64,000 nucleotides of DNA. Origin: a virus. This document shows positions 21,705 to 64,000 of this stretch, piece after piece. The stretch spans positions 1 through 64,000 of IMG/VR virus record IMGVR_UViG_3300028115_001726; one strand, written 5' to 3'. Under the pieces are notes generated by a model that was given only the letters and a program-made list of their open reading frames with translations, ran no database searches and was not told where the DNA came from. The position numbers were made by a program, and so were the translations under genes. Position 1 is the stretch's first letter. Each line of letters opens with the position of its first letter.

Positions 21705-22049
21705 ATGGACGAAAGACTTGAAAAGGCTTTAGATTTTAGTAATTATATGATTACACTAGATAATCAAAAAAGGTTACTTAAAGAAAAATATCAAGAAGAT
21801 TTAATGTATTATCACAATGGTGGTACATTTACAGCTACAAAGGAATTGATAACATTTTGTTCTTCCATGGAGTCATCTCAGCAAGAAGAAATAATTCTAA
21901 CAGATGATAATAATATTCCAATAAAAGTTACAACACAAGAATTTTTAGATGGAATACGTGATACATATTTCCAAGCAAGTAACAAGTACTATGTTGAATT
22001 TGATAAATTAATATCAAACAGAACAGTAGAAGGTATTATAGATTTATGA
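21705..22049 (+). CDS. Hypothetical protein, 114 aa (weak resemblance to tail-fibre assembly helpers)
   Basis: Good SD, coupled to the downstream gene. YHNGGTF...LTDDNNIPIKVT..EF pattern; function call is weak. Confidence 0.6.
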   Translation: MDERLEKALDFSNYMITLDNQKRLLKEKYQEDLMYYHNGGTFTATKELITFCSSMESSQQEEIILTDDNNIPIKVTTQEFLDGIRDTYFQASNKYYVEFDKLISNRTVEGIIDL

Positions 22050-22888
22050 GCAGAGGTGCTCTATTAATAGCAAGAAATAATTCTCAAGTTGATTACGTTA
22101 AACAAGCAATTTTTTGTGCTGAAAAAATACAACAGCATTTAAATATTCCTGTTACGTTATTGACAGATAATGTTTCCTATATGGAAAAAACTTATAGCAA
22201 TAAAATACAAGTGTTTGATAATGTTATTGCTTTACAAAACGAAAAAGCAAAAAGTTATAAAAAATACAGAGACGGTATTTTCCAAGAATATAAATTAGAA
22301 TGGAAAAACACAAGTCGTAACGTTGCTTATGACGTAACTCCATATGACGAAACATTATTAATGGATACTGATTACATCTTAGCAAATAATGTGTTAACAA
22401 ATTGTTTTAAACAAAACAACGATTTAATGATGTATAACATGGCTACTGATCTAGCCGGATGGCGTGATTTTTCCGAGTTTAGCCATATTTCACCAAATGG
22501 AATAGACTTTTATTGGGCAACTATTGTATTTTTTAGAAAAACGAAAGTAAATAAAATATTTTTTGATCTTGTAGGACATATTAAAGATAATTGGTATCAT
22601 TATAAAGTTGTTTATAAAATTATGAATCCAACGTTTAGGAATGATTTTGCTTTTAGTATAGCTGCTCATATCATGAACGGATATATGAGGAACAATTTTG
22701 TAACGCCATTACCTGGTAAAAAATATGTAAGTCTTGATAATGATATTTGTATTGGTATAGATAATAATAAATTTAATTTTTTAGTACAAAAAGAAGCCAG
22801 TGCTGATTATTTTCCTGTGTCTACTAAAGAACAAAATGTACATATAATGAATAAGTTTAGTTTAAACAGGATAATCGATGAGTCTTAA
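22046..22888 (+). CDS. GT-A fold glycosyltransferase-like protein (GT8/mannosyltransferase-like)
   Basis: DY..QA..CA..I.......VTLLT, then TPYDETLLMDTD (DxD), WATIVFFRK and RNDFAFSIA. Confidence 0.6.
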   Translation: MSRGALLIARNNSQVDYVKQAIFCAEKIQQHLNIPVTLLTDNVSYMEKTYSNKIQVFDNVIALQNEKAKSYKKYRDGIFQEYKLEWKNTSRNVAYDVTPYDETLLMDTDYILANNVLTNCFKQNNDLMMYNMATDLAGWRDFSEFSHISPNGIDFYWATIVFFRKTKVNKIFFDLVGHIKDNWYHYKVVYKIMNPTFRNDFAFSIAAHIMNGYMRNNFVTPLPGKKYVSLDNDICIGIDNNKFNFLVQKEASADYFPVSTKEQNVHIMNKFSLNRIIDES

Positions 22889-23720
22889 TTTTACAATATT
22901 TGCGCAAAATAGCACACACGATTATGTTCAGCAGGCATGTCTAGCAGCTATGAGTATAAAGTTGACCAATCCAACCTCTAAGATTGCGTTAATTACCAAT
23001 GATGATGTACCTAAAAAATATCAACATCTTTTTGAACATATTGTTCCTATTCCTTTTGACGATGCCAGTAGTAACAGCGAATGGAAAGTTGAAAATAGAT
23101 GGAAGATATATCATGCTTGTCCGTTTGAAGAAAGTGCTGTAATTGACAGCGATGTTTTAATTTTAAGTAATTTAGATCATTGGCAAAGTGTATTACAAAA
23201 ACACGATTTATACTTTGTAAATCATGTAAAAACATATAGAGGCACAACAGCAGACAACATTTATTATAGAAAAGCATTTAGAAATCATAATTTGCCAAAT
23301 TTGTATGCTGGGTTTCATTATTTTAAAAAATCAAAATTTGCGCATCAATTTTATAAATGGTTAGAACTAGTAATGAATAATTGGGAATTATTCTATGGAC
23401 AATATGCTGGAGGAAAATATTTTCAAAAATGGCCTAGTATTGATGTGAGTGCGGCAATTGTAACAAAAATTCTTAATTGCGAAAATAAAATTACAAATAC
23501 TATTGACTATCCTACAATAACACACATGAAATTAAGGAATCAAGGTTGGAAAAAACTTCATGTTGAATCTTGGCAGGCACAAGTTGGAACATATTTTAAT
23601 AATGATTGTAAATTAAAAATAGGTAATTATTCTCAAACAGGAATTTTTCATTACACTGAAAAAACTTTTTGTAATAAAGAAATTATTAAAACATATGAAA
23701 ATAAATTAGGAATAAAATGA
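22878..23720 (+). CDS. GT-A fold glycosyltransferase-like protein, paralog of 22046
   Basis: DYVQQACLAAMSI...IALIT, CPFEESAVIDSD (DxD), NLYAGFHYFKK, FHY near the C-terminus. Confidence 0.6.
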   Translation: MSLNFTIFAQNSTHDYVQQACLAAMSIKLTNPTSKIALITNDDVPKKYQHLFEHIVPIPFDDASSNSEWKVENRWKIYHACPFEESAVIDSDVLILSNLDHWQSVLQKHDLYFVNHVKTYRGTTADNIYYRKAFRNHNLPNLYAGFHYFKKSKFAHQFYKWLELVMNNWELFYGQYAGGKYFQKWPSIDVSAAIVTKILNCENKITNTIDYPTITHMKLRNQGWKKLHVESWQAQVGTYFNNDCKLKIGNYSQTGIFHYTEKTFCNKEIIKTYENKLGIK

Positions 23721-24283
23721 TAAACGGAGTTATTACAGAAAGATATATTTACTTTGACGAAATTGGAAATATACTTAAAATTTCAAATAATAACAATGAC
23801 GAAGGACAATATTTAAAAACAAGTATAGAAGATGTTTGGGATATTATGTCTGGTATAAAAACTATGGATTCTTTTTTTGTTATTTTTGATTCAGTACAAA
23901 AAAAGCATATTATTAAAAGTAGATTTGTTGAAGATGAAATTAAATTTGACATAAACGATCAAATTTATAAAATTCCAAAAACAAAAATAGACAGACCTGA
24001 TCTAACTATAAAACAAAATGTGATAAAAAAACAGTGGGATATAGAGTTAGATCCTATGTTAGATGAAAACATTAAGAATAGGAAGTTAATTTTTTCTGCT
24101 GCTTATAATTTTAGCGTATGTGGAAAGAACGATCCTCATAACCTGTATCAATATTTTCAAATTGATTTAAATAACATAAAATCAATACCTTTTATTAGCG
24201 ATTACGAACTTGACATAGATTCTGTAAGCGTATATACTACAAAGAGATTAGATACATATTACCACGAGGTTATCAATGACTAA
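23717..24283 (+). CDS. Hypothetical protein, 188 aa
   Basis: ORF translationally coupled on both sides; no motif recognised. Confidence 0.6.
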   Translation: MINGVITERYIYFDEIGNILKISNNNNDEGQYLKTSIEDVWDIMSGIKTMDSFFVIFDSVQKKHIIKSRFVEDEIKFDINDQIYKIPKTKIDRPDLTIKQNVIKKQWDIELDPMLDENIKNRKLIFSAAYNFSVCGKNDPHNLYQYFQIDLNNIKSIPFISDYELDIDSVSVYTTKRLDTYYHEVIND

Positions 24284-25208
24284 ATTTAGAGTGTTAGACT
24301 ATGACATTATTTACTTGAGCTATGACGAGCCTAATGCTGAAAAAAATTATGCTGATTTGTGTAGTAAAATACCTTGGGCTAAACGTGTACACGGAGTTGA
24401 AGGCAGTGACGCCGCACACAAAGCATGTGCTGAGTTAAGTGAAACTGATAGATTTATTACAATTGATGGTGATAACATTATTAATAAAGAGTTTCTTGCT
24501 AAAGAGTTTGATTTAGAATCACACGAAGATGCGCATTGGAATAAAGAAGCAAAGTTAGAAGATTGTGTAATTAGCTGGAGTGCTAGAAATACTATTAACA
24601 ATCTAATGTATGGCAACGGCGGCATTAAATGTTGGCCTAAGGAAAAAGTATTAAGTATGCGTACACACGAAAATGCTGATCCTAGTAATATTCATGCGCA
24701 AGTTGACTTTTGTTGGGATATTGAATATATTCAAATGAATAGTTGTTATAGCACAATTATGAATAACGCAACTCCACATCAAGCATGGCGTGCTGGATTT
24801 AGAGAAGGTGTTAAAATGGCACTTGACAGAGGTATGCGTGTAAATAAAGAAGATTTTTTAAAAAATCATTGGAAAAATTTACATAGATTATATATTTGGC
24901 TTATGGTTGGCGCCGATGTTGAAAATGGAAGATGGGCAATTTATGGAGCAAGAGAAGGTTTGTACAAAACTATGTGTACAGATTGGGACTTTGTAAATGT
25001 CCGTGATTTTAAATGGTTAAATGAATATTGGGACGCTAAAACTGATTTAGTAGAAGAAGATATAGAATACTATTCACAAGAATTAGGGGATAAACTCATT
25101 AACGAATTAGAACTTCCAATAGCTGTTGATCCGTTAGATGCTACGCAAAGCAATTTTTTCAAGACTGTTTATGTTAATCAGCCTAGAAATCCAAAAAAAG
25201 GAACATAA
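24276..25208 (+). CDS. GT2-like glycosyltransferase
   Basis: YDIIYLSYDEPNA...AKRVHGV.G...AH..CA....DRFITIDGD (DxD)...YGNGGIK...AWRAGFREG. Paralog of the C-terminal domain of 55072..56394. Confidence 0.6.
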   Translation: MTKFRVLDYDIIYLSYDEPNAEKNYADLCSKIPWAKRVHGVEGSDAAHKACAELSETDRFITIDGDNIINKEFLAKEFDLESHEDAHWNKEAKLEDCVISWSARNTINNLMYGNGGIKCWPKEKVLSMRTHENADPSNIHAQVDFCWDIEYIQMNSCYSTIMNNATPHQAWRAGFREGVKMALDRGMRVNKEDFLKNHWKNLHRLYIWLMVGADVENGRWAIYGAREGLYKTMCTDWDFVNVRDFKWLNEYWDAKTDLVEEDIEYYSQELGDKLINELELPIAVDPLDATQSNFFKTVYVNQPRNPKKGT

Positions 25209-26594
25209 ATGTCTTTTGAAAAAGAAAAAACAAAATATGTAAATGATATAACAACACGACATTTTTCTCCTACATTTTGTTTTGCTAAATGGTATCACAC
25301 AACAATATATTTACAAACGGGTGAAACACATAGTTGTTATCACCCTGCTCCTCATGCTATTGACGTTGATGAGCTCTTTACTAATCCAAGTGCTTTACAT
25401 AATACTAAACACAAAAAACAAGAACGTAAAGAGATGTTAGAAGGTAAGCAATGTGTTGGCTGTAACTATTGCTGGAACGTAGAAAACATGGGTCCTGATT
25501 TTGTTAGTGATAGACATATTCGCAGTGGCAGTATTTACAATGAAGAACGGTTAAATGAAGTAAAGTTAAAACCTTGGGACTTTAATGTTAATCCTGAATA
25601 CATTGAAATTTCATTTGGTAATGAGTGTAACTTTAGATGTGGGTATTGTCATCCTAAAGCAAGCAGCAGGTACTACAACGAAATACGGCAACACGGTCCG
25701 TATGACATGGTTAAAAATCATAGATGCGATGTAGATTGGTTTCGTGTATACGAAGAAGATAGCAATCCGTATGTACGTGCGTGGTGGAAGTGGTGGCCTG
25801 AAGTTAGCAAGACACTAAACATTTTGCGTGTTACTGGCGGAGAGCCTACAATACAAAAAAGCACATATAGACTGTTTGACGAACTTGAGAAAGATCCAAA
25901 GCCAAATCTTGAATTAAATGTAAACAGTAACTTAGGAGGTAAAGAACGTCAATTAGCAAAATTTACCGACAGTGTAAATAGTTTACTTTCGCAAAACAAA
26001 ATTAAACAGTTTAAATTGTTTACTAGTGTTGACACCTGGAATCAACGAGCTGAGTACATAAGAGATGGATTAGATTTAGAAGTATTTGAAAGGAATCTTG
26101 ATTATTTCCTTACTAACACTACAGCACCAGTAACTTTTATGATTACTTTTAATATTTTTAGTGTAACAACATTTCAAACATTGTTAGAAAAAATATTAGA
26201 ATGGCGAGCAAAATATAATGATGTAAATAGCGGACGCTGGCAACGTATACATTTTGATACTCCATATTTAAAAGAACCTTTACAATACGATATTAATATT
26301 TTACCAAAAGAACAATATATGCCTTATATGGAAAGCCATTTACAGTTTATTCAAGATAATCTTAAAGAAGGCAGTAAAACACATTTTAGTACAATGGAAT
26401 ATGAAAAATTTAGACGTGTTGTAAGCTATATGAAAACTACAGAATACGATGTGAATAAAATACGTGAAGGACGCCGAGATTTTTATAACTTTTTTAAAGA
26501 ACAAGATCGAAGACGTAATGTAGATTTTGAATTAAGTTTTCCAGAAATGTCTGACTTCTTTACGTTATGTAAGGAAGTTAATGGAACCTTCTAA
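25209..26594 (+). CDS. Radical SAM enzyme with N-terminal twitch/SPASM-like domain (class A, #1)
   Basis: CNFRCGYC, TGGEP; N-terminal FCFAKW...HSCYH...CVGCNYCW. Confidence 0.9.
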   Translation: MSFEKEKTKYVNDITTRHFSPTFCFAKWYHTTIYLQTGETHSCYHPAPHAIDVDELFTNPSALHNTKHKKQERKEMLEGKQCVGCNYCWNVENMGPDFVSDRHIRSGSIYNEERLNEVKLKPWDFNVNPEYIEISFGNECNFRCGYCHPKASSRYYNEIRQHGPYDMVKNHRCDVDWFRVYEEDSNPYVRAWWKWWPEVSKTLNILRVTGGEPTIQKSTYRLFDELEKDPKPNLELNVNSNLGGKERQLAKFTDSVNSLLSQNKIKQFKLFTSVDTWNQRAEYIRDGLDLEVFERNLDYFLTNTTAPVTFMITFNIFSVTTFQTLLEKILEWRAKYNDVNSGRWQRIHFDTPYLKEPLQYDINILPKEQYMPYMESHLQFIQDNLKEGSKTHFSTMEYEKFRRVVSYMKTTEYDVNKIREGRRDFYNFFKEQDRRRNVDFELSFPEMSDFFTLCKEVNGTF

Positions 26595-27744
26595 GGACAA
26601 TTCATACTGTTATTACCCTTTTAAACAAATTGCTATAAGTCATTGGAATAGCGATGGCATCCAGTGTGTCAATCCATGTTGTAATATGGCAAGTCCATTA
26701 GATCCTGATCCTTTACAAACTAACAAAGACATTCACAACGATGTTGAAAAATTATTTGATTTGCCTCAACTACAAAATATTCGTACACAGATGCTAAATG
26801 GAGAATATCCTAGTGCTTGTAATACTTGCTATGAAGCAGAAAAATACGGAAGTAGTCCAAGACTAATGTTAGATACAACAGTAGACAATAAGTTAGAGTG
26901 GCTTGATATACATTTAGGTAACAAATGTAATCTTAGATGTAGAATGTGTCATCCTGCGTTAAGTAATCAACTTAACAAAGATGCTGAATTATTCAAACAA
27001 GATGGTTATGAATATTGGTGGACTAGTGTGCCAGACATAGCACCACATGACATAAGTGTATTATATCCTGTACTAGAACAAATTACAAATATAAGAGTAA
27101 GTGGCGGAGAACCACTTTTGTCAAAAGAATATTTACAGTTATTAGATTACTGTATTGACAATGATTTATCAAAAAATATAAGTTTAGAACTACATACTAA
27201 CGCAACTAAGTTTTCTAATACTAATGTACAAAGATTGAATAAATTTAAACATGTTAATGCTACATTTAGTATAGACGGTATACACAAAGTTTACGAATAT
27301 ACAAGATATCCTTTTGCGTTTTCTATACTTGAAAACAATGTTAAAAACTTTTTTAAAAATGTAAAAAATTATACTGTTCAAATAAACTATGTAGCAACAA
27401 TATACAATATGTTTAATGTACGTGAAACAATATCTTGGGCTGAACAATTTCCCATAAGTGATTTTGTAGTTACAAATGTTTATCCGCAAGGACGCAATAT
27501 CGATGTATGTTGGGCACCATATAATCTTCTTCTAATTGCTAAAGAAATGCTACTAGCAATGACAAAACCATATCAAACAGAACCTTTTACTAATTATTTA
27601 CAAGACTGTGTGATTAATAATAAGTACAGCATAGAAAAGATTAAAGAAATAAAACTAGAAACTTTACAGTTTGATAAAAATCGTAATCAACATTACAAAG
27701 ATTATTTACATAACATGACAATAGGGTTATTAGATTCGGTATGA
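26581..27744 (+). CDS. Radical SAM enzyme, N-terminal twitch (class A, #2)
   Basis: CNLRCRMC, SGGEP, TNAT, SIDG; N-terminal CYYPF...PCC...CNTCY. Confidence 0.9.
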   Translation: MEPSKDNSYCYYPFKQIAISHWNSDGIQCVNPCCNMASPLDPDPLQTNKDIHNDVEKLFDLPQLQNIRTQMLNGEYPSACNTCYEAEKYGSSPRLMLDTTVDNKLEWLDIHLGNKCNLRCRMCHPALSNQLNKDAELFKQDGYEYWWTSVPDIAPHDISVLYPVLEQITNIRVSGGEPLLSKEYLQLLDYCIDNDLSKNISLELHTNATKFSNTNVQRLNKFKHVNATFSIDGIHKVYEYTRYPFAFSILENNVKNFFKNVKNYTVQINYVATIYNMFNVRETISWAEQFPISDFVVTNVYPQGRNIDVCWAPYNLLLIAKEMLLAMTKPYQTEPFTNYLQDCVINNKYSIEKIKEIKLETLQFDKNRNQHYKDYLHNMTIGLLDSV

Positions 27745-37517: not shown

Positions 37518-37521
37518 AATG

Positions 37522-37569
37522 TATTTAACCACCAGATCTAATAAGTACATGGTTAATGGATCGTAAATA
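37522..37569. promoter_or_regulatory. Divergent TAAATA boxes
   Basis: Minus TAAATA-catt-ATG(37517). Plus TAAATA at 37564-37569 followed by AAGGAG SD and ATG at 37586. Confidence 0.55.
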
Positions 37570-51059: not shown

Positions 51060-51087
51060 ATTATAACACAGTTTAGTAATGTGTCAA
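51060..51087 (-). promoter_or_regulatory. Sigma70-type promoter TTGACA-N16-TATAAT with extended -10
   Basis: Minus strand: TTGACA (51087-51082), TGt-TATAAT (51065-51060). ATG follows 5 nt later, so probably leaderless. Confidence 0.7.
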
Positions 51088-51879: not shown

Positions 51880-51884
51880 ACAAC

Positions 51885-51901
51885 TACTTATATATTAAAT
51901 A
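51885..51901. promoter_or_regulatory. Divergent TAAGTA / TAAATA boxes next to start codons
   Basis: Minus TATAAGTA-N5-ATG(51879). Plus TAAATA-cagt-ATG(51906). The gap is only 26 bp with no SD. Confidence 0.55.
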
Positions 51902-51905
51902 CAGT

Positions 51906-55036: not shown

Positions 55037-55065
55037 TTGACAGATATTTTTTGATGCTATATAAT
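55037..55065 (+). promoter_or_regulatory. Perfect sigma70 consensus promoter TTGACA-N17-TATAAT
   Basis: TTGACA 55037-55042, TATAAT 55060-55065. The ATG at 55072 sits at the expected +1. Confidence 0.8.
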
Positions 55066-55071
55066 AGTAAC

Positions 55072-57280: not shown

Positions 57281-57504
57281 TGGATTTGTCAACTTTAAGT
57301 ACTAGAGAATTACAACTAGAAAGTGCTAGAGCATTAAGCACGATAGAAGCAACTAATAATAATATTTGGCAGTTTAATAAAGCAGCACATCATAATAGTT
57401 GGAACTGGTATTGTGCTGTAATACATTGGTATATCGATCAATATGGTGATTTGCCTAGTAAAGCAGGCCCCGGTAAGGATGTAAAGTTAGTATACGATGT
57501 ATAA
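57280..57504 (+). CDS. Small hypothetical protein, 74 aa
   Basis: TAATG overlap with the upstream stop and overlap with the downstream rSAM start; Trp/Tyr/His-rich. Confidence 0.65.
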   Translation: MDLSTLSTRELQLESARALSTIEATNNNIWQFNKAAHHNSWNWYCAVIHWYIDQYGDLPSKAGPGKDVKLVYDV

Positions 57505-58576
57505 GTATGAAGATGTACGTGTTATTCATTTAGAAAACACACAGAACTGTCAAGCAAGTTGTCCTATGTGTGATAGGAACCAAAACGGTGGAGATATAAA
57601 TCCGCATATTGATTTAAGTGAACTAACCTTAGAAGATTGTAAGCGCATCTTTGAGCCAGAGTTTATTGCTCAACTAAAAACAATGTACATGTGCGGCAAT
57701 TTAGGAGATCCTATTGTTGCTAAAGATACGCTAGAAATTTTTAAATATTTTAGAGAACACAACAAAGATATGTGGCTCAGCATGAATACAAACGCAGGAG
57801 CAAGAGATGAAGCATGGTGGGCTGAATTGGCCAAAATCTACGGCAGGATGGGTACTGTTATTTTTAGCGTGGATGGTCTTAGGGATACTAATCACTTATA
57901 CAGGCAGGGTGTTGTTTGGGACAACGTAGAAAGAGCTATGAAAAGTTTTATTGCTGCTGGAGGTAGAGCAAGATGGGACTTTCTAATATTTGAACACAAT
58001 CAACATCAAGTTGAAGAAGCAGAAGAAATAAGCAAACTAATGGGCTTTGAAAGATTTCAAGCAAAAAAGACTGGAAGATTTGTAACAGCAAAAAGCGAAA
58101 ATAAAGAATCACACCAAGCAGTCAATCGCAAAGGCGAAAAAACAACAGAACTTAAAAAGCCAGAAAAAAAGTATCAAAATAAAGCATTAAGCAAACAAGA
58201 TGTGCTTATACAAAAATACGGATCGATGGATGCTTACTATGATGTAGTTCCAGTCAATTGTAAAGTAAAAGAGGAAGGTAGTTTGTTTATTACAGCAGAA
58301 GGGCTTGCTATGCCATGTTGTTGGACTGCTGGACGTATGTACAAATGGTGGCATAAAAATCCTATGGTAGAACAAGTATGGGATTTTATTGAACGTTCTG
58401 GCGGCAAAGACGCAATTAGTGCTAAAAAACATGGACTCAAAGCAGTTTTTGATACAGGACTATTTGACGAAATTGAAGATAGTTGGAATCAACCTAGCTG
58501 TGGAAACGGAAAACTAAAAGTTTGTTCAATGAAATGCGGCAAAGAATTTGATCCTTTTGGAGAACAATTTAAGTGA
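57497..58576 (+). CDS. Radical SAM enzyme (class C, #14)
   Basis: CQASCPMC, MCGNLGDP, FSVDGL.DTN..YR, FIAAGG.A.W; C-terminal C...PCC...CSMKCG. Confidence 0.9.
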   Translation: MYKYEDVRVIHLENTQNCQASCPMCDRNQNGGDINPHIDLSELTLEDCKRIFEPEFIAQLKTMYMCGNLGDPIVAKDTLEIFKYFREHNKDMWLSMNTNAGARDEAWWAELAKIYGRMGTVIFSVDGLRDTNHLYRQGVVWDNVERAMKSFIAAGGRARWDFLIFEHNQHQVEEAEEISKLMGFERFQAKKTGRFVTAKSENKESHQAVNRKGEKTTELKKPEKKYQNKALSKQDVLIQKYGSMDAYYDVVPVNCKVKEEGSLFITAEGLAMPCCWTAGRMYKWWHKNPMVEQVWDFIERSGGKDAISAKKHGLKAVFDTGLFDEIEDSWNQPSCGNGKLKVCSMKCGKEFDPFGEQFK

Positions 58577-59595
58577 ATCTTTATCAGTTTGATACAATTA
58601 AAAAAATAGAAATAGATTGTACAAGTTATTGTAATGCTTATTGCGGAGCATGTGATAGAAACATCGACGGCGGCGAAAATCATCCTAATCTAAAACTAAA
58701 TCATATCAGTGTTGAAGATTGGCGTAGTTTTATCACCAAAGACAATTTACAAAATGTTCAAGAAATTATTTTCAATGGTAATTTTGGTGACTTCAGTATG
58801 AATCCAAATTTTATTGAAATGATAGAAATATTAGCTGAAGTCAAAACAGATGTATATTTGAATTTGAATACCAACGGCGGCGCACGTAATACAAAATTTT
58901 GGCATGACCTTGCTGTGGTATTACAACGGTTTGCTAAACATGATATAAAATGGGGTATTGACGGACTTAAACATAATCATGATGTGTATAGGCGTGGCAT
59001 TGACTGGAAAAAACGCATAGACAACCTACGTGCGTTTAACAATGCTGGCGGCAACAGTATATGGAAGTGTATTGTATTTGATTACAACAAAAATGACATA
59101 GATGCTATTAGCAATTTTGCCGAATCTGTAGGTTGTATGGCCTTTCAAACCAATCGCAATCGATCAGAGGTTGACATGAAAGCCTACAAAGATTTTCCAC
59201 AGCAAAAGTTATCTGGCCCTGATACAAAAACATTCAGTGAAAAATATGCTAGACGTGATACATTCCGTTCTCATGTAGCAACACCTCCGACTAATGCTGT
59301 ACAACCTGTAGGAAGTTTTGCTTGTCCTTATGCTGAGGAAGGCATGCTACAAATCGATCCTTGGGGCAATATTTGGCCATGCTGTTATATCAGTGGTAGA
59401 CAACTTGATCTAAGAACAAACTTTAATTATTCAAAGTATAAAAACAATCATATAAGAAATGCCAACTTGCGTACATTAACACAAGAATTTGCCAATGATT
59501 TACATTTAGCATGGCAGCGTGAAAGCATAGATATATGTAATCGTTGCGGCGGCAAAGAAAAACCTGCTCCAATATATAACACGGTGATATCATGA
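58573..59595 (+). CDS. Radical SAM enzyme (class C, #15)
   Basis: CNAYCGAC, FNGNFGD, NTNG, GIDGL...YR; C-terminal CP...WPCC...CNRCG. Confidence 0.9.
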   Translation: MNLYQFDTIKKIEIDCTSYCNAYCGACDRNIDGGENHPNLKLNHISVEDWRSFITKDNLQNVQEIIFNGNFGDFSMNPNFIEMIEILAEVKTDVYLNLNTNGGARNTKFWHDLAVVLQRFAKHDIKWGIDGLKHNHDVYRRGIDWKKRIDNLRAFNNAGGNSIWKCIVFDYNKNDIDAISNFAESVGCMAFQTNRNRSEVDMKAYKDFPQQKLSGPDTKTFSEKYARRDTFRSHVATPPTNAVQPVGSFACPYAEEGMLQIDPWGNIWPCCYISGRQLDLRTNFNYSKYKNNHIRNANLRTLTQEFANDLHLAWQRESIDICNRCGGKEKPAPIYNTVIS

Positions 59596-60614
59596 AAATT
59601 GCTGTAGTGTTAAGAGGTCAAGCTAGATGTGCTAAACTAGGATCAGACTTATTTCAACGCTTTGTTGTTGACGAAAATCCGCAACACCAATTTGATGTTT
59701 TTATTCATACCACAAACACAGAAACGATATGCGATGCTACAGATGCAAAGAACAGGCCACAAAATCTATATGATGTTGAAATTCAAGATTTAAATTACAT
59801 ACATGAAAATTATTTAAAATATTGGAAGCCAAAAAAATATATTATTGAGGGAACTAGTAAATTTTTGAATACTGTTAATAATATAATAAAAGAAAATGCC
59901 AAAGACAAAACTTTTAAAAATATTTTAAATATTGATACACATGCTCCTAATCTTCTATATGGCGGATCTTCAAAAAAATTTGATTATAAACGTAGATTAC
60001 ATGCATTACATTTTATGTCACAGCACTGGGGAGCAGCAAGAGGTTATAGTTTAATAGACAGCGAATATGATTTAATTTTACAAACAAGACCAGATTGTTT
60101 ATTTTATTTTCAGTCTGGTGATTTACAAAGATGTTTAGATATTATAAATTATAGTGCTAACGATTTAGAAAATATTAGTACACAAGTTATGTCTCATATA
60201 TTAAGTGTAAGATTTAGTAAGCCGTTGATAGCAGATTATCTGTATGTTCATAAACAAAATATTATATCACAATGGTTTCCTGATGTTGAAAAAACTTTTT
60301 TTGATTTGTTTACAAAAGATAAACTTGCTTTATACGACTTAATAGGCGACAATCAAATTAAATTTCAAAATTTATTGTTTTTAAAGTTTGGAAAAAAGTT
60401 GGAATTTATAAACAATCACAATTGTTGGAACGCAGAAATTATAAGACCAAGTGTTGAAATTAATAAAACAGACGATATTGGTACAGTGTTTGATAAATGT
60501 AGAGTAAAACAACAAAACTTTCGAAAAGATAGAACCTCAATAGAAGTAGATCTTGAGCCAATATATCAAAAACTACTGAATAACGATTTGTGGCTAGAGG
60601 GCAGTTATGAATAA
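59592..60614 (+). CDS. Hypothetical protein, possible glycosyltransferase-like
   Basis: MKIAVVLRGQAR...DVFIHT...YDLILQTRPD is a pattern I associate with glycan-locus proteins; the family is not certain. Confidence 0.45.
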   Translation: MKIAVVLRGQARCAKLGSDLFQRFVVDENPQHQFDVFIHTTNTETICDATDAKNRPQNLYDVEIQDLNYIHENYLKYWKPKKYIIEGTSKFLNTVNNIIKENAKDKTFKNILNIDTHAPNLLYGGSSKKFDYKRRLHALHFMSQHWGAARGYSLIDSEYDLILQTRPDCLFYFQSGDLQRCLDIINYSANDLENISTQVMSHILSVRFSKPLIADYLYVHKQNIISQWFPDVEKTFFDLFTKDKLALYDLIGDNQIKFQNLLFLKFGKKLEFINNHNCWNAEIIRPSVEINKTDDIGTVFDKCRVKQQNFRKDRTSIEVDLEPIYQKLLNNDLWLEGSYE

Positions 60615-61734
60615 ATTTTGTACACTGACCAACAACGGCTTTAATATAGACACCACAGGCAGAGTAGGACATTGCTGTATACAAAAGCGTGACATAAGGG
60701 TAGACTGGAACACAGTTGACGATATGAATGCTTGGTACAAATCAAATTCATGGCTGAACACTGTACGCAAAGATTTAGAATCAAGCATAGAAAACACAGC
60801 ATGTGAAAGTTGCTGGCACAACGAACGCAACGGCAGAGAAAGCAAACGCCACAGAGTTAATCAACAGTACGGCAGCACTGATCAAAGCATAAGACACTTG
60901 GATCTAAGACTCAGCAACAAGTGTAATTTACAGTGTAAAATGTGTAGCGGAGGTTTCAGTGACCAAATAGCAAACCTAGCACTGGAACTAAAAGCCAATG
61001 GTGTGGACAATGACTTACTTCGTAGCATACCCAGCACCGTGGACACAGATGTAGGACGCTTGCTGGATTTAGTGCTGGATTTACCAGACTTACAAACGCT
61101 GAGATTTGCTGGCGGTGAGCCTTTTATCATGCCGGAAGTAGAAGAATTTTTGTACAAGTTGGTAGAGCGAGGCAAAACTGATCTTGAAATAGAATTCATA
61201 ACCAACTGTACCAGTGCCAAAACTCGCATATTACAAACATTAGAAAAGTTTCGGCATGTAGAGCTAATGTGTAGTATTGACGCTGTAGGAGCAGCATTGG
61301 AGTATCAGCGGTACCCTGCTCGTTGGCAAACCATTGAACGCAATTTTGTTAGAATGTACAACAGCCGTTGTATGGTAGGACTTACACCTGCTGTGAGTAT
61401 GCTTACATATCACAACATGCCAGAGTTTTTTGCTTGGGCTAATCAGTTTCCCCAAGCAAGAGTAAGTTATAATGAAGTTGACTATCCTAGTTTCTTGGAC
61501 TTTAGATTGATTCCGCTAGATGCTAGAACAGAATTTTACAAACAATTTGCTGCTGTAGAATTTATTGATGTGAATACTAATTGGAGAACATTCCAGACTA
61601 AAACCATGTACGAACACAGACAAATAAGTACAACTGAACGCAGTCTACTACAACATTACAGCAAGGACATTTGGGACTATAGATGTAATGTAGAGTTTTT
61701 AGCAGCATATCCATGGGCAGAAGAATTATTATGA
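60607..61734 (+). CDS. Radical SAM enzyme, N-terminal twitch (class A, #16)
   Basis: CNLQCKMC, FAGGEP; N-terminal FCTL...G...HCC...CESCW. Confidence 0.9.
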   Translation: MNKFCTLTNNGFNIDTTGRVGHCCIQKRDIRVDWNTVDDMNAWYKSNSWLNTVRKDLESSIENTACESCWHNERNGRESKRHRVNQQYGSTDQSIRHLDLRLSNKCNLQCKMCSGGFSDQIANLALELKANGVDNDLLRSIPSTVDTDVGRLLDLVLDLPDLQTLRFAGGEPFIMPEVEEFLYKLVERGKTDLEIEFITNCTSAKTRILQTLEKFRHVELMCSIDAVGAALEYQRYPARWQTIERNFVRMYNSRCMVGLTPAVSMLTYHNMPEFFAWANQFPQARVSYNEVDYPSFLDFRLIPLDARTEFYKQFAAVEFIDVNTNWRTFQTKTMYEHRQISTTERSLLQHYSKDIWDYRCNVEFLAAYPWAEELL

Positions 61735-62414
61735 ACACACTTGCTATACTACCTATAAAAGGAAACAGCGAAAGAGTGCCACGCAAGAATCTGCGTCCAG
61801 TGGGAAAGTATCTTTATGGAATTACCGAAATAAAAATAGAACAATTACAAAAAAGTCAACACATCTCAGAAATATTTGTTAGTAGTGAAAGTAACGAAGT
61901 TTTAGATATAGTTTCAAAACTTCCTGGAGATAAAAAAGTACATTTACACAAAAGAGATACACAGTATGCCGGTACTTGTCCGGGAGATGTGTGGGTAAAA
62001 CATCTGTCTCAACAAGTAACAAACATACCAGCAGATAACATAGCAATGGTTTTTGCTACAGCACCGTTCTTTACTGAACATGACATTGACGACTTGTTAG
62101 AATTTTACGCTGACTCTGAATACGATAGTGTAGCGACAGCAAATGAAATTAAAAATTTTTTATGGAAAGATGGAGAGCCATTGAATTACGATCCTAATGC
62201 TGTAGGATATTGGCCGTTGACACAAACACTAGAATCTGTGTACGAAATAAATTCAGCAGTGTTTGTAAGTCGGCACAAAGATTTTGTACAAACTGGAAAT
62301 AGACTACCGGGTAAAATAGGATTCTACAAATCATCATGGATGGCAAGTTTGGACATTGATTATCCTGACGATTGGAAAAGATTTGAATTATTATGGCAAA
62401 CTTATACAAAATAA
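61731..62414 (+). CDS. Acylneuraminate/Kdo-type cytidylyltransferase (NeuA/KdsB family)
   Basis: LAILPIKGNSERVPRKNLRP, ATAPF, EINSAVF, DIDYPDDW. Start at the ATGA overlap, 61731. Confidence 0.85.
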   Translation: MNTLAILPIKGNSERVPRKNLRPVGKYLYGITEIKIEQLQKSQHISEIFVSSESNEVLDIVSKLPGDKKVHLHKRDTQYAGTCPGDVWVKHLSQQVTNIPADNIAMVFATAPFFTEHDIDDLLEFYADSEYDSVATANEIKNFLWKDGEPLNYDPNAVGYWPLTQTLESVYEINSAVFVSRHKDFVQTGNRLPGKIGFYKSSWMASLDIDYPDDWKRFELLWQTYTK

Positions 62415-63340
62415 AAACAAGAAACAACATACTGGTAGTAGACTGGATACTCAGCAATGTGTGTAATTTCAAATGTACATACTGTACACCGGACAGCAAT
62501 GGTGGCGATTTGTATTGGCCTGATATTGAACAGTGTGAAACTGTAGTACGGCGTATCACAGAACAAAGCACACATGATCATAGAATATATACTATACTAG
62601 GCGGCGAGCCTACAGTGTGGAAGAACTTTACAAAGCTCAGTGAAATCATTAAGTCAGTTGATCCTGATAGTGTAGTAAACATTCTAACCAACGGCAGTAG
62701 AACAATCAAATGGTGGAACAGAACCAAGCCATACTTGGATAAAGTAAGCATTAGCTATCACCATCAAGAAGCTGATGTAGATCACACCATTGAAGTTGTG
62801 AATACAATACAACAGGATTGTCAAACCAACATTCAAATGCTAATGGATATCAATGCGTGGGACAAGTGTGTTGGTATATACGAAAAACTGCGAGACAACA
62901 CTGTGGTGCCCATACAGATAAAAAAGCTACAAATTGAATTTGGACAGCGAGACTGGATGCCCTACACTGATGAGCAAAGACAGTGGATGGCTGAAGCACA
63001 TCGCAGCACTGCTAATAGGCCCAGCACAAAACGCAACAAAACCAGTTTAGGCATCAACTGTTATTATGACGACGGTTCTATTACACAAGAAAACAATCAT
63101 GATTTAATACAAGCAGGTAAAAACCGTTTCGAAGGATGGGCATGTAATATTGGCAGAGATTTAGTAGTTATAAAAGCAAACGGTGATGTTGTTCCTGCTA
63201 ATGCTTGTAACAATAAGGTAAGTATGGGCAATATAAAAACATCACCAGAAAAAGTAAATCTTTTAAATGAACCAATTATTTGTGCTTACAAAGAATGTAC
63301 TTGTGGAAGTGATATTGAGATTGACAAATGCACTATTTAG
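62393..63340 (+). CDS. Radical SAM enzyme, C-terminal Cys cluster (class B, #17)
   Basis: CNFKCTYC, LGGEP, LTNG; FEGWACNIG...AC...ICAYKECTCGSD. Confidence 0.9.
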   Translation: MANLYKIKTRNNILVVDWILSNVCNFKCTYCTPDSNGGDLYWPDIEQCETVVRRITEQSTHDHRIYTILGGEPTVWKNFTKLSEIIKSVDPDSVVNILTNGSRTIKWWNRTKPYLDKVSISYHHQEADVDHTIEVVNTIQQDCQTNIQMLMDINAWDKCVGIYEKLRDNTVVPIQIKKLQIEFGQRDWMPYTDEQRQWMAEAHRSTANRPSTKRNKTSLGINCYYDDGSITQENNHDLIQAGKNRFEGWACNIGRDLVVIKANGDVVPANACNNKVSMGNIKTSPEKVNLLNEPIICAYKECTCGSDIEIDKCTI

Positions 63341-64000
63341 ATAAACCAAAAGTATTACAATTTGAAATTAGTAGTAATTGTAATGCCAATTGTATTGGGT
63401 GTAGTCGTGCTGATCCACTTGATGAACTAAAACTAAATCCTGTTATTAAAAAAAACATTTTTTTACACATTGATATTTTCAAAAAAATTGTTGATGCTGA
63501 TTTTTTCAAAGATATAGAAGAAATACAGTTTTGTGGTAGTATTGACGATCCGCCTATGCATCCTGACTTTCTTGACATGCTACGTCACATAGTGTATAAT
63601 ACTGATAAGAGTATAGTTATACACACAAACGGTAGTTTGCGTAAACCAGAGTACTGGGCCGAAATGGCAACAATACTACAAGGCAGTAGGTATACATTGA
63701 ACTTCAGTGTTGATGGTTTAAAGGACACTAACCCAATATATCGTAGAGGAACAGACTTTGACAAGATTATGGAAAACGCAAAAGCGTTTGTCAAAGCCGG
63801 AGGCCGTCCACAATGGCAGTGGGTTGTTTTTCCTTGGAATGAGCATCAAATTGAAGAAGCCAAAGATCTTGCTAAACAAATTGGATTCACAAGATTCAAA
63901 GAACGCCCTGATACCTGCTTGGACAATAGAGAGCTAGATAAGTTATATGAAAGAACAGAATTAGAAAAGAAACGGTCACAATGGAATTGGGATAGATATG
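63328..64000 (+). CDS. Radical SAM enzyme (class C, #18), 3'-truncated, absent from the supplied ORF track
   Basis: Manual translation from ATG 63328: MHYLDKPKVLQFEISSNCNANCIGCSR...FCGSIDDP...HTNGSLR...FSVDGLKDTNPIYRRG...FVKAGG.PQW, open to the window end. Confidence 0.88.
   Translation, partial: MHYLDKPKVLQFEISSNCNANCIGCSRADPLDELKLNPVIKKNIFLHIDIFKKIVDADFFKDIEEIQFCGSIDDPPMHPDFLDMLRHIVYNTDKSIVIHTNGSLRKPEYWAEMATILQGSRYTLNFSVDGLKDTNPIYRRGTDFDKIMENAKAFVKAGGRPQWQWVVFPWNEHQIEEAKDLAKQIGFTRFKERPDTCLDNRELDKLYERTELEKKRSQWNWDRY

What the first reader, a model, noticed from the sequence alone, without database searches (positions are those of the whole stretch)
21705..64000. Phage-encoded mega-cluster: 18 radical SAM enzymes embedded in a glycan-biosynthesis toolkit right behind the tail-fibre genes
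Seen: 18 of ~45 consecutive genes carry CxxxCxxC plus auxiliary Cys clusters. They are interleaved with GT8-like (2), GT2-like (2), GT10-like (3), SGNH-like (3), methyltransferase (2) and 2OG-oxygenase (3) genes, plus DegT aminotransferase, amidinotransferase, NDP-sugar epimerase, CMP-sugar synthetase and QueC-like genes. The cluster runs off the window edge. Established: twitch/SPASM rSAMs include sugar dehydrogenases (BtrN) and peptide-modifying enzymes, and giant viruses glycosylate their own fibrils using such nucleotide-sugar genes. Inference: a virus-autonomous assembly line that builds and radically tailors an unusual glycan or other post-translational modification, most plausibly on the virion. 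I know of no characterised phage pathway with this many rSAMs.
Basis: partly seen in the sequence, partly recalled or inferred. Interest (0 to 1): 0.95.

Follow-up and report, generated by a model that had tools for sequence, protein, structure and literature searches.

The report
Jumbo-phage radical-SAM sugar-tailoring island
An uncultured marine giant phage carries, right behind its tail-fibre genes, a block of some 50 kb of soluble enzymes, almost half of them iron-sulfur "radical SAM" enzymes of unstudied families, that most likely builds and chemically edits an unusual sugar decoration whose chemistry and target nobody has measured.

Summary
In 21705-64000, exactly 18 of 44 ORFs of 80 aa or more carry CxxxCxxC. 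All 18 match Pfam Radical_SAM. The contig runs on to 72,670 bases with 5 more, 23 in all.

The DNA is phage. The giant upstream ORF matches virion proteins of PA5oct/Atu_ph07/Rak2-type jumbo phages. Relatives of 333-364 kb carry a T4-type capsid gene. The fibre-to-cluster order recurs in independent contigs and in the cultured Ralstonia phage RsoM2USA.

The rSAMs fall into three old families: 7 N-terminal-twitch (NCBIfam NF033640, function unknown), 7 short and 4 of a third type.

Among the partners, the amidinotransferase (StrB1-like, E 3e-88), epimerase, DegT and cytidylyltransferase are confirmed. GT-A and GT-B folds are supported by models. GT8, SGNH, methyltransferase and QueC calls stay weak.

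No ORF has a membrane segment.

Best reading: a late, cytoplasmic glycan-building and radical-tailoring pathway, probably acting on virion fibres. The target is inferred only.

Smaller islands of this kind are in print (PMC5332604, PMC7029224), and this scan has reported them on other DNA many times. This window is an extreme member.

The parts
2..13528 (+). Giant virion structural protein (4508 aa, 5' end cut by the contig end)
   Evidence: phrog_10938 'virion structural protein', E 8e-277. Residues 549-1556 are about 30% identical over 96% of their length to PA5oct-group virion proteins, and also match Atu_ph07, Phosso, SCTP-2 and Rak2.
13550..21653 (+). Tail and fibre module: six ORFs (13550-14158, 14162-16264, 16261-18120, 18156-19640, 19671-20594, 20604-21653)
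   Evidence: Phage tail Collar domain in 14162-16264 (E 7.5e-17). PHROG tail, tail-fibre and virion hits. The three fibre ORFs share an N-terminal domain.
21705..22049 (+). g07, a 114-aa core protein of unknown function
   Evidence: No Pfam or PDB-sequence hit. Conserved in 17 related contigs and in RsoM2USA (37% identity).
22046..23720 (+). g08 and g09, paralogous GT8-like (GT-A type) transferase candidates
   Evidence: A profile of 32 sequences hits only glycogenins, E 1e-3 to 1e-2. D107 is nearly invariant and D109 invariant. No Pfam hit. Present in 37 contigs each.
23717..24283 (+). g10, 188 aa, unknown
   Evidence: No hit. Found in 13 contigs.
24276..25208 (+). g11, core GT-A-fold transferase with an invariant DGD motif
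   Evidence: AF2 model pLDDT 85.5. Foldseek top hits are SunS/ThuS, PBCV-1 A64R, TarP and RmlT (E 9e-5, TM about 0.3). VIA Z 9.6, rmsd 3.2, 136 residues aligned, to B4GALNT1. At least 8000 homologs, of which 2 of the 120 listed carry PF13641.
25209..30210 (+). Four tandem class A rSAMs with an N-terminal twitch domain (25209-26594, 26581-27744, 27741-28946, 28939-30210)
   Evidence: NF033640 scores of 296, 224, 377 and 391 bits against a cut-off of 170. SPASM Pfam hit lies N-terminal to the core.
30194..31159 (+). Class B short rSAM (g16), a core member
   Evidence: PF04055 E 5e-10. Five invariant C-terminal Cys. 51-61% identical orthologs in distant relatives.
31152..31883 (+). SGNH-like, DUF6071 (g17)
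   Evidence: PF19547 E 1.8e-8. Family invariants G9, C10, S11, N48 and H223.
31841..33184 (-). GT-B-type paralog (g18)
   Evidence: Paralog of g25 (E 7e-16). Invariant E...EK motif.
33239..34030 (+). SGNH-like (g19)
   Evidence: Member of alignment A4. Family profile against GDSL gives E 0.011.
34010..35011 (-). Amidinotransferase (g20)
   Evidence: Full-length profile match to StrB1 1bwd (E 3e-88), then HsvA, AGAT and SxtG. 64% identical to the 'inosamine amidinotransferase' of cyanophage S-SCSM2R.
35050..36138 (+). GT-B-type paralog (g21)
   Evidence: Paralog of g25 (E 1e-9).
36135..36950 (+). SGNH-like (g22)
   Evidence: Member of alignment A4.
36930..37610 (-). Short DegT/DnrJ/EryC1-type PLP aminotransferase (g23)
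   Evidence: PF01041 E 6.6e-17. 51% identical to S-SCSM2R ORF305.
37556..38497 (+). NDP-sugar epimerase/dehydratase, SDR family (g24)
   Evidence: PF01370 E 8.7e-38 and PF16363 E 3e-36.
38476..39462 (+). GT-B-fold transferase (g25)
   Evidence: AF2 pLDDT 85. Foldseek hits T4 BGT (E 4e-5), GT4s, GtfA, SdgB and FucT. VIA Z about 11, tied among T4 BGT, GT10 FucT and TarM.
39453..40055 (+). Methyltransferase-like candidate (g26)
   Evidence: Only Methyltransf_25 at E 0.22. Paralog of g43 (E 3e-28). 784 homologs; none of the 120 listed has a Pfam domain.
40052..41431 (+). Class A rSAM (g27)
   Evidence: NF033640, 396 bits.
41428..43384 (+). Two class B rSAMs (g28, g29)
   Evidence: PF04055 E 9e-12 and 3e-6; alignment A6.
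43332..44489 (-). g30, 385 aa, unknown; weak lead to a GT-A-like protein
   Evidence: No Pfam or PDB hit. The nearest ESM Atlas clusters are viral, and some carry Glycos_transf_2 (a lead only).
44461..45210 (-). Asp/Arg beta-hydroxylase-family oxygenase (g31)
   Evidence: PF05118 E 4.5e-9.
45249..46295 (+). Class C rSAM (g32)
   Evidence: PF04055 E 6e-8. Groups with g44, g45 and g50.
46258..49129 (-). Three class B rSAMs (g33, g34, g35)
   Evidence: PF04055 E 6e-15, 8e-12 and 3e-11.
49107..50414 (-). Class A rSAM (g36)
   Evidence: NF033640, 305 bits.
50359..51054 (-). PP-loop, QueC-like ATPase candidate (g37)
   Evidence: An SGGADS motif is seen in the sequence. QueC Pfam at E 0.07. 1680 homologs, of which 2 of the 120 listed carry PF06508. 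No PDB-sequence hit.
51073..53196 (.). g38 (-), g39 (+) and g40 (-): one weak cupin/hydroxylase and two unknowns
   Evidence: g39 hits PF05118 at E 9e-4, below the cut-off. g38 and g40 have no hit.
53196..54998 (-). Fibre-like repeat protein inside the island (g41)
   Evidence: The repeat-rich sequence was read directly. No PHROG or Pfam hit. Orthologs in 6 contigs are only 30-43% identical.
55051..56394 (+). g42, whose C-terminal half is a g11-type GT-A paralog
   Evidence: BLASTP against g11, E 3e-32.
56381..57280 (+). g43, paralog of the methyltransferase-like g26
57280..57504 (+). Unlisted 74-aa gene just upstream of the class C rSAM g44
   Evidence: It fills the only long gap. It is 76-82% identical in 6 related contigs.
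57497..59595 (+). Two class C rSAMs (g44, g45)
   Evidence: PF04055 E 9e-8 and 4e-7. g45 has a weak C-terminal SPASM match (E 0.0026).
59592..60614 (+). g46, unknown; lead to phage glycosyltransferase-like clusters
   Evidence: ESM Atlas score 0.96 to viral clusters, one of them named 'Glycosyltransferase family protein' (a lead only). Absent from the fetched relatives.
60607..61734 (+). Class A rSAM (g47)
   Evidence: NF033640, 228 bits.
61713..62414 (+). CMP-sugar-type cytidylyltransferase (g48)
   Evidence: PF02348 E 9.5e-9.
62393..64000 (+). Class B rSAM (g49, 62393-63340) and the start of class C rSAM g50 (63328 onward, ending at contig base 64425)
   Evidence: PF04055 E 3e-12 and 2e-12.

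Best explanation
This is the accessory island of the tail-fibre region of an uncultured marine or salt-marsh jumbo myophage of the PA5oct/Rak2/RsoM2USA kind. It encodes an all-soluble, probably late-transcribed pathway.

Proposed steps (all inferred):
1. The pathway makes activated amino-sugars or aminocyclitol-like units, using the SDR epimerase/dehydratase, the DegT aminotransferase, the StrB1-like amidinotransferase (which would add a guanidino group) and the cytidylyltransferase.
2. Several GT-A- and GT-B-fold transferases string these units onto a cytoplasmic acceptor.
3. The product is edited by acyl-esterase-like, oxygenase-like and, above all, radical SAM enzymes of three uncharacterised families. 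Each rSAM would abstract a hydrogen from a different carbon, giving epimerisation, oxidation, deoxygenation, or C-C or C-methyl chemistry.
4. The most likely acceptor is a virion protein, either a fibre or the giant protein.

What is shown: the gene content, the enzyme superfamilies, the conserved order, the phage origin, and the presence of identical sequence in RNA libraries. What is inferred: the substrate class of the rSAMs, the late timing and the acceptor.
For: rSAM content:
- 18 intact rSAMs lie in the window and 23 on the contig.
- 17 of the 23 have orthologs of 50% identity or more in related contigs, so they are maintained genes.
- The paralogs are ancient: bit scores of 30-390 against self scores of 600-1000.

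Conserved core: the order g07, GT8-like x2, GT-A g11, N-twitch rSAM x3-4, short rSAM, then GT-B x1-3 recurs in 7 of the 8 distant loci mapped (the eighth shows only the rSAM). Two of those loci lie in complete genomes with terminal repeats. A reduced core with one N-twitch rSAM sits in cultured RsoM2USA downstream of its MS-confirmed virion protein ORF361 and its sheath gene.

Sugar chemistry:
- Epimerase, DegT and cytidylyltransferase.
- An amidinotransferase closest to StrB1.
- GT-A and GT-B folds.
- The N-terminal domain of class A aligns to the twitch domain of the carbohydrate dehydrogenase BtrN (E 1e-6).

Cytoplasmic acceptor: none of the 59 ORFs has a 19-residue hydrophobic window at or above 1.6.

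Link to virion genes:
- A fibre-like gene lies inside the island.
- ATAAATA occurs 5 of 11 times in the 593 intergenic bases (p 2e-8), in front of fibre genes and of cluster genes alike.

Field evidence: identical contigs in four metatranscriptome libraries cover 12 to 24 of 30 bins of 36001-56000.
Against: - No glycan, acceptor or reaction has been measured for any member.
- Twenty non-rSAM ORFs have no credible Pfam match. The GT8, SGNH and methyltransferase labels rest on E-values of 1e-3 to 0.2.
- Most characterised SPASM/twitch enzymes act on peptides, not sugars.
- Cellular N-twitch homologs sit in unrelated contexts that give no substrate clue.
- Adjacency to fibre genes is also what is expected of any hypervariable accessory region. 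The authors who described similar islands favoured host O-antigen modification (PMC7029224).
- The top structural hit of the GT-B model is a DNA glucosyltransferase, although tied with others.
- RNA-library contigs may be carried-over DNA and cannot show timing.
- The late-promoter reading rests on motif placement only.
Confidence: 0.45

Rival explanations
1. Host-envelope remodelling. The island makes unusual nucleotide-sugars, or glycan pieces, that are fed into the host's own LPS or capsule machinery during infection. This would change the cell surface and exclude competing phages.
For: This is the reading proposed in print for the glycosyltransferase-rich host-recognition cluster of pelagimyophages, which also holds rSAM cassettes (PMC7029224, passages read). 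The island is hypervariable between relatives, with per-gene identity of 38-96% and gain and loss of cassettes, as expected in an arms race.
Against: None of the 59 ORFs has a membrane segment. So the island itself has no flippase, polymerase, initiating phosphoglycosyltransferase or Gtr-type protein. The core is fixed inside the tail gene block even in a soil Ralstonia phage. The promoter-like boxes are shared with fibre genes.
Confidence: 0.2
2. Direct radical modification of proteins. The twitch/SPASM-type rSAMs act on virion proteins or on a small encoded protein, by cross-links, epimerisation or C-methylation. Glycosylation would be a separate side activity.
For: Most characterised SPASM/twitch enzymes are peptide or protein maturases; the weak NCBIfam hits are mostly to such families. 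A conserved 74-aa, Trp/Tyr/His-rich ORF sits directly upstream of a class C rSAM. Small core proteins g07 and g10 have no assigned role.
Against: No rSAM reaches the cut-off of any RiPP-maturase family. No other free small ORF lies in the island. The 74-aa protein is conserved over its whole length rather than as a leader plus a variable core. The fibre proteins are Cys-poor. Class A has a single BtrN-like twitch domain.
Confidence: 0.12
3. A diffusible small molecule. The DegT, rSAM, amidinotransferase and GT set makes an aminoglycoside- or guanidino-cyclitol-like metabolite during infection.
For: The amidinotransferase is closest to streptomycin StrB1. The class A twitch domain resembles that of butirosin BtrN. 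The same DegT-rSAM-amidinotransferase cassette in cyanophage S-SCSM2R was annotated as 'antibiotic synthesis genes' (PMC12801897, passages read).
Against: No exporter or self-resistance gene was seen. The amidinotransferase cassette is not part of the conserved core. The core is tied to tail genes.
Confidence: 0.1
4. DNA hypermodification. The transferases glycosylate phage DNA, and the rSAM and QueC-like genes tailor a base or its sugar.
For: The GT-B model's top hit is T4 beta-glucosyltransferase. There is a QueC-like PP-loop gene. T4-type phages are known to glycosylate DNA.
Against: The T4 BGT hit is tied with GT10, GT4 and TarM (Z 10.8-11.1). No TGT/DpdA, QueD or FolE hit appears at E <= 0.01 in the Pfam scans of the island's 44 ORFs and six tail/fibre ORFs. 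Complete relatives have a single thymidylate-synthase-family gene with a very high canonical score, which neither shows nor excludes hmC. The promoter-like boxes match those of the fibre genes.
Confidence: 0.07

Closest known systems
Host-recognition cluster (HRC) of pelagimyophages and cyanomyophages (Zaragoza-Solas et al. 2020, PMC7029224; passages read)
   Same: A large hypervariable region lies downstream of a giant structural protein in T4-type marine myophages. [quoted passage not shown] An Asp/Asn beta-hydroxylase is also present.
   Different: Here the phage clade is a jumbo one: complete relatives are 333-364 kb. The rSAM load is far higher (23 on one contig) and three defined rSAM families are involved. 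The paper gives no rSAM classification or chemistry.
NCBIfam NF033640, N_Twi_rSAM (twitch domain-containing radical SAM protein)
   Same: Seven window ORFs score 224-396 bits against a cut-off of 170. They share the N-terminal Cys domain followed by the CX3CX2C core.
   Different: The family is only a catalogue entry; I found no reaction or substrate for it in print. Here it occurs as up to 11 diverged paralogs in one phage island.
T4-like environmental viral genome TARA_ERS488813_N000010 with 12 rSAM genes (Nishimura et al. 2017, PMC5332604; one passage read)
   Same: A marine T4-type phage genome was noted for many rSAM genes together with Fe-S assembly genes. Two of three complete relatives here also carry an A-type Fe-S carrier.
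   Different: The paper gives only a count. No cluster structure, partners or function are described. I could not compare sequences, because Table S1E is in the closed supplements.
DegT-rSAM-amidinotransferase-GT cassette of Synechococcus phage S-SCSM2R (PMC12801897; PQ898602.1)
   Same: The amidinotransferase is 64% identical and the short DegT 51% identical. Both are flanked by an rSAM, 2OG oxygenases and glycosyltransferases.
   Different: That phage has one rSAM in the cassette and none of the N-twitch/GT-A core. It was interpreted there as antibiotic synthesis.
BtrN/StrB1-type aminocyclitol tailoring in aminoglycoside pathways
   Same: A twitch-domain rSAM, a DegT-family aminotransferase and a StrB1-like amidinotransferase occur together.
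   Different: The twitch domain is N-terminal (permuted). No inositol-phosphate or 2-deoxy-scyllo-inosose synthase was detected. The context is a phage tail region with many transferases.
Virus-encoded virion glycosylation (chlorovirus PBCV-1 A64R; mycobacteriophage capsid and tail glycosylation, Freeman et al. 2023, recalled and seen only as a reference)
   Same: Virus-encoded cytoplasmic glycosyltransferases act on structural proteins. PBCV-1 A64R is among the fold matches of g11.
   Different: Those systems contain no radical SAM enzymes. Here glycosylation of the virion is not shown.

Membership tests
Radical SAM superfamily (PF04055) | CX3CX2C cluster-binding motif | tested here: met
   18 of 44 ORFs in 21705-64000, and 23 on the contig.
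Radical SAM superfamily (PF04055) | Profile match above the gathering score | tested here: met
   18 of 18 at E <= 0.003. Fifteen of the 18 are above 29.5 bits; three are at 29.0, 18.3 and 27.9.
Radical SAM superfamily (PF04055) | GGE-type SAM-binding motif after the cluster motif | tested here: met
   18 of the 23 on the contig have GGE. The four class C proteins have GN[FL]GD or GSIDD. For g53 the scan found only a GND 221 residues after the cluster motif. The name and role of the motif are recalled.
NF033640 N_Twi_rSAM | Score over the curated cut-off of 170 bits | tested here: met
   ORFs 25209, 26581, 27741, 28939, 40052, 49107 and 60607 score 224-396 bits.
NF033640 N_Twi_rSAM | Auxiliary-cluster Cys domain N-terminal to the core | tested here: met
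   C8, C26, C68 and C71 are invariant in 12 sequences. The domain aligns to the BtrN twitch domain (E 1.2e-6). The SPASM Pfam hit lies N-terminal.
RiPP-type rSAM/SPASM maturases | Membership of a curated maturase family | tested here: not met
   Of the 17 rSAMs scanned (63328-63999 was not scanned), none reaches the cut-off of any RiPP-maturase model. The best such scores are 20-54 bits against cut-offs of 265-850.
RiPP-type rSAM/SPASM maturases | A cognate precursor peptide nearby | tested here: inconclusive
   Only one free small ORF exists (57280-57504, 74 aa). It is conserved over its whole length.
Glycosyltransferase family 8 | Sequence-profile membership | tested here: inconclusive
   No Pfam hit at E <= 5. 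The profile of 32 sequences hits 19 glycogenin chains and nothing else, E 9.5e-4 to 1.2e-2.
GT-A fold (GT2-like) transferases | GT-A Rossmann-like fold with a DxD motif | tested here: met
   The g11 model has pLDDT 85.5. Foldseek and VIA matches are GT-A transferases and nucleotidyltransferases (Z 9.6, rmsd 3.2, 136 aligned). D64-G65-D66 are invariant. Pfam Glycos_transf_2 itself was not hit.
Glycosyltransferase family 10 (fucosyltransferases) | GT-B fold and family-level similarity | tested here: inconclusive
   The GT-B fold is supported (Z about 11). But GT10 FucT is tied with T4 BGT, TarM and GT4. No Pfam or PDB-sequence hit.
Amidinotransferases (StrB1/AGAT type) | Full-length sequence similarity to solved members | tested here: met
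   1bwd E 3e-88 over profile positions 5-323 of 324; HsvA 3e-61; AGAT 9e-57; SxtG 3e-54.
Amidinotransferases (StrB1/AGAT type) | Catalytic Cys near the C-terminus (Cys-His-Asp triad; triad recalled) | tested here: met
   The F323-H324-C325 block is invariant in 5 sequences, and D and H candidates are invariant. Residue-by-residue mapping to StrB1 was not done.
SGNH/GDSL hydrolases | Conserved Ser, Gly, Asn and His blocks in order | tested here: inconclusive
   G9, C10, S11, N48 and H223 are invariant in 29 sequences. GDSL chain 4rw0 scores E 0.011. g17 hits DUF6071.
7-deazaguanine (QueC/QueD/QueE/DpdA) DNA-modification pathway | QueC together with QueD, FolE and a transglycosylase | tested here: not met
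   There is only a QueC-like PP-loop gene (E 0.07; 2 of 120 homologs carry PF06508). No QueD, FolE or TGT hit at E <= 0.01 in any ORF scanned. ORFs beyond 64000 were not scanned.
Rak2/PA5oct/XacN1-RsoM2USA supergroup of jumbo myophages | Homologous giant virion protein, T4-type capsid and syntenic tail block | tested here: met
   (5 of 5 relatives have PF07068). No capsid gene lies on this contig itself. No phylogeny was built.
Host-recognition cluster of T4-type marine myophages | Hypervariable region after the giant structural gene, holding fibres, GTs and rSAM cassettes | tested here: met
   compared with the description in PMC7029224.

The most novel reading that the evidence does not exclude
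The three rSAM families, above all the N-terminal-twitch family, are a new class of carbohydrate-editing radical enzymes that work on a glycan already attached to virion fibre proteins. Phages would gain and lose these cassettes to generate combinatorial glycan diversity on the host-recognition apparatus. That would be a radical-chemistry layer of host-range or defence evasion with no characterised precedent.
Probability: 0.3. Interest if true: 0.85.

Novelty: new variant of a known kind. Interest (0 to 1): 0.62.

Why it matters
Radical SAM enzymes do chemistry that ordinary enzymes cannot. Here 23 of them, from three families with no known reaction, are packed with sugar-handling enzymes in one phage island. 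The core of that island recurs in many aquatic jumbo-phage contigs: the GT-A partner family alone has at least 8000 metagenomic homologs.

If the product decorates the virion, this would be the first phage glycosylation system to use radical chemistry, and a rich source of new carbohydrate-modifying enzymes. The cultured Ralstonia phage RsoM2USA carries the minimal core, with every gene annotated 'hypothetical'. The cyanophage S-SCSM2R carries the amidinotransferase cassette. So the question can be taken to the bench now.

Tried and rejected
Searches and tests that led nowhere:
- Pfam at E <= 5 gave nothing credible for 20 non-rSAM ORFs.
- PDB-sequence profile searches gave no hit for g11, the GT-B family, g37, g30 or g07.
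- The contexts of cellular N-twitch homologs gave no common theme. They included a Paenibacillus ACP/ketosynthase/GT2 operon and unrelated neighbours in Reichenbachiella, Mangrovivirga and a Cytophagales genome.
- Class B rSAM g33 has no match in 50,697 phage records. Class C g44 has only a weak match in Pelagibacter phage Mosig.
- The exact T4 late box TATAAATA is not enriched overall: 5 matches against 14.8 expected. Only its placement, and that of ATAAATA, in the intergenic bases is significant.
- The thymidylate-synthase search meant to test an hmC route was uninformative.
- Earlier notes of this scan mention an invariant 33-residue peptide in such islands. I looked for conserved small ORFs in the gaps of seven relatives. 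I found only a roughly 50-aa ORF upstream of the g01 homolog. Neither tblastn (80% coverage filter) nor three short motifs taken from it found it on this contig.
- The moraphage paper (PMC12619734) does not mention radical SAM and seems to concern another lineage.
- RNA-library contigs leave some bins of 36001-56000 uncovered; that says nothing about silence.
- I did not use complex prediction, the search of protein representatives, the third Foldseek job or two of the VIA jobs.

Full report
WHAT IS THERE

The window is bases 1-64000 of a single 72,670-base virus record with both ends open.

From 21705 to 64000, 44 ORFs of 80 aa or more lie almost without gaps, many overlapping by 4-23 bases. 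A conserved 74-aa ORF at 57280-57504 fills the only long gap.

Exactly 18 of the 44 carry CX3CX2C. All 18 match Pfam Radical_SAM at E <= 0.003, and 15 of them are above the gathering score. The stretch beyond the window adds five more, so the contig has 23.

All class A and class B proteins keep a GGE motif behind the cluster motif. Class C has a GN[FL]GD or GSIDD variant at that place.

THE rSAM FAMILIES

All-against-all BLAST and the Cys patterns split the 23 into four groups:
- Class A: 11 on the contig, 7 in the window.
- Class B: 7, all in the window.
- Class C: 4.
- One enzyme with a long N-terminal extension, beyond the window.

Class A carries a Cys domain in front of the core, with C8, C26, C68 and C71 invariant in the 12-sequence alignment.
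- The seven window members score 224-396 bits on NCBIfam NF033640 'N_Twi_rSAM', whose cut-off is 170.
- This N-terminal domain aligns to the C-terminal twitch domain of BtrN (E 1.2e-6).

Class B is short, with five invariant C-terminal Cys. Class C has a C-terminal Cys region. Neither reaches the cut-off of any NCBIfam model.

The paralogs are old: bit scores of 30-390 against self scores of 600-1000. Seventeen of the 23 have orthologs of 50% identity or more in related contigs. Six (g45, g47, g49, g50, g51, g56) have only paralog-level matches among the loci I fetched.

IT IS A PHAGE, AND THE CONTIG IS NOT A CHIMERA

- The 4508-aa ORF upstream matches phrog_10938 'virion structural protein' (E 8e-277).
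- About 1000 residues of it match virion proteins of the PA5oct group at 30% identity over 96% of the length. They also match Atu_ph07, Phosso, SCTP-2 and the Rak2-like phages.
- The next ORFs are tail and fibre proteins.
- A search of IMG/VR with one class A enzyme returned 46 loci at 37-82% identity, on contigs of up to 364 kb.
- Two of those records have terminal repeats and are rated complete. All five large records I tested carry a T4-type Gp23 capsid gene.
- The 170-kb record G005 is collinear with the window from the giant ORF through the island. Per-gene identity runs from 38% to 96%.
- Fourteen DNA runs from salt-marsh and seawater samples hold 93% or more of the sampled words of 40052-50000. 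Eleven of the 14 are flagged as possible sources of this DNA, so they are not all independent support.

HOW WIDESPREAD AND HOW VARIABLE

Radical_SAM matches per record (E <= 0.01):

| Records | Matches |
|---|---|
| The three (near-)complete distant relatives of 333-364 kb, and one 244-kb fragment | 7-9 |
| Eleven fragments closer to the window | 7-22 (eight of them 14 or more) |

A core order is kept in 7 of the 8 distant loci I mapped; in the eighth only the rSAM itself matched:
g01 – variable fibre genes – g07 – GT8-like x2 – g11 – class A x3-4 – class B g16 – GT-B-type x1-3.

The cultured Ralstonia jumbo phage RsoM2USA has a reduced version, its ORF355-347. It consists of g05-like, g07, g08, g09, an unmatched gene in the position of g10, g11, one class A rSAM, a g42-type GT-A and a g26-type protein, at 30-47% identity. 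All of these are annotated 'hypothetical'.

In RsoM2USA the module lies downstream of the virion protein ORF361, which was confirmed by mass spectrometry, and of the tail sheath gene (PMC8504454, passages read). That paper does not mention radical SAM.

THE PARTNERS

Firm:
- SDR epimerase/dehydratase, DegT aminotransferase (a short form), CTP_transf_3 cytidylyltransferase and an Asp/Arg-hydroxylase-family oxygenase.
- An amidinotransferase that Pfam missed. Its profile matches StrB1 over its full length (E 3e-88), followed by HsvA, AGAT and SxtG.

Supported by models:
- g11 is a GT-A-fold protein with an invariant DGD motif.
- g25 and its paralogs g18 and g21 have a GT-B fold. The family cannot be told: T4 BGT, GT10, GT4 and TarM tie at Z about 11.

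Weak:
- g08/g09 as GT8 (glycogenin hits only, E 1e-3 to 1e-2).
- The SGNH-like set.
- The methyltransferase-like pair.
- The QueC-like PP-loop protein.
- g30 and g46, as GT-like leads from the ESM Atlas only.

g41 is a fibre-like repeat protein inside the island.

WHAT POINTS TO A MECHANISM

- No ORF on the contig has a hydrophobic stretch compatible with a membrane helix. The island therefore has no flippase, polymerase or initiating transferase of its own. That fits sequential glycosylation of a cytoplasmic acceptor better than direct work on the envelope.
- The island is welded to the tail and fibre block in every relative, including a soil phage.
- ATAAATA occurs 11 times on the contig, and 5 of those copies lie in the 593 intergenic bases (p 2e-8). 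They sit in front of fibre genes (g04, g41) and of cluster genes (g18, g31, g32). In several cases the box ends 4 bases before the start codon.
- By analogy with the T4 late promoter (recalled), this suggests late co-expression with virion genes. It is an inference from motif placement alone.
- Four metatranscriptome libraries hold contigs identical to the island. Contigs cannot prove transcription or timing.

WHY THE SUGAR READING IS PREFERRED

The rSAMs always travel with transferases, in the core as in the expansions. The sugar-nucleotide enzymes are the only other firmly identified chemistry. The class A auxiliary domain is a single BtrN-like twitch.

The alternative readings are listed as rivals with their tests:
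- protein or peptide modification;
- host-envelope remodelling, as proposed for pelagimyophages;
- a diffusible aminoglycoside-like product, as proposed for S-SCSM2R;
- DNA hypermodification.

WHAT IS KNOWN

- Nishimura et al. 2017 noted a 183-kb T4-like marine viral genome with 12 rSAM genes and Fe-S assembly genes (PMC5332604, one passage read).
- Zaragoza-Solas et al. 2020 described the host-recognition cluster of pelagimyophages. It has fibres, glycosyltransferases (mostly GT8) and rSAM cassettes downstream of the giant VrlC protein (PMC7029224, passages read).
- The S-SCSM2R paper lists the DegT/rSAM/amidinotransferase trio (PMC12801897, passages read).
- My full-text searches found no paper that characterises any of these enzymes, or that describes a phage island with this many rSAMs. 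These searches cover only the held library.
- This scan has reported islands of the same type on other DNA many times. Their follow-ups reached much the same reading, which is not independent evidence.

VERDICT

The window is an extreme, expanded member of an island type that has been noticed but never studied biochemically. I rate it a new variant of a known kind, interest 0.62.

Noticed in passing
window 57280-57504 (+): A 74-aa ORF rich in Trp, Tyr and His. An 80-aa ORF list misses it. It is 76-82% identical in six related contigs and overlaps the start of the class C rSAM at 57497. It could be a partner or a substrate of that enzyme.
   Followed up: partly
window 18122, 33221, 45215, 45238, 55016 (ATAAATA); also 35016, 51896: Promoter-like A/T boxes sit in the short intergenic gaps. 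In several cases they end 4 bases before the start codon (g20, g31, g32, g39), which would give leaderless mRNAs. One RNA-library contig (51069-51880) coincides almost exactly with ORF 51073-51879.
   Followed up: partly
L086 and L089 (two contigs of a Haliscomenobacter MAG); L081 (Verrucomicrobia TMED56); L125 (Rickettsiales MED657): These 'bacterial' MAG contigs carry the phage core module. The two Haliscomenobacter contigs also carry T4-type capsid genes, and L081 and L125 carry fibre genes. They look like jumbo-phage contigs binned with bacteria.
   Followed up: partly
L077 (Oligoflexia MAG), 8644-16049: Five N-terminal-twitch rSAM genes stand in a row in what appears to be a cellular genome: no Gp23 match was found in it. 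So tandem arrays of this family are not confined to phages.
   Followed up: no
G005:C1:37975-38895: An N-twitch rSAM-like frame with one in-frame TGA lies far from the island of that record. It may be a decaying copy.
   Followed up: no
G001:C1:189566-189865 and G003:C1:105792-106094: Two of three complete relatives encode an A-type Fe-S cluster carrier (PF01521). This fits the earlier published remark that rSAM-rich T4-like phages bring Fe-S assembly genes.
   Followed up: no
L026:1160-1312 and homologs in 14 loci: A conserved ORF of about 50 aa lies just upstream of the g01 homolog in the distant relatives. It is absent from this contig.
   Followed up: partly
window 36930-37610 (-): The DegT-type aminotransferase is only 226 aa, against a Pfam profile of 360 positions, and its 5' end overlaps the epimerase gene on the other strand. 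The S-SCSM2R homolog is similarly short, so this is probably a genuine short form rather than a truncation.
   Followed up: partly
window 58573-64000 and contig 64000-72670: The distal part of the island is the most variable. Six rSAMs and ORFs 59592-60614, 61713-62414, 68396-69031 and 69028-69657 have no close counterpart in the fetched relatives.
   Followed up: partly
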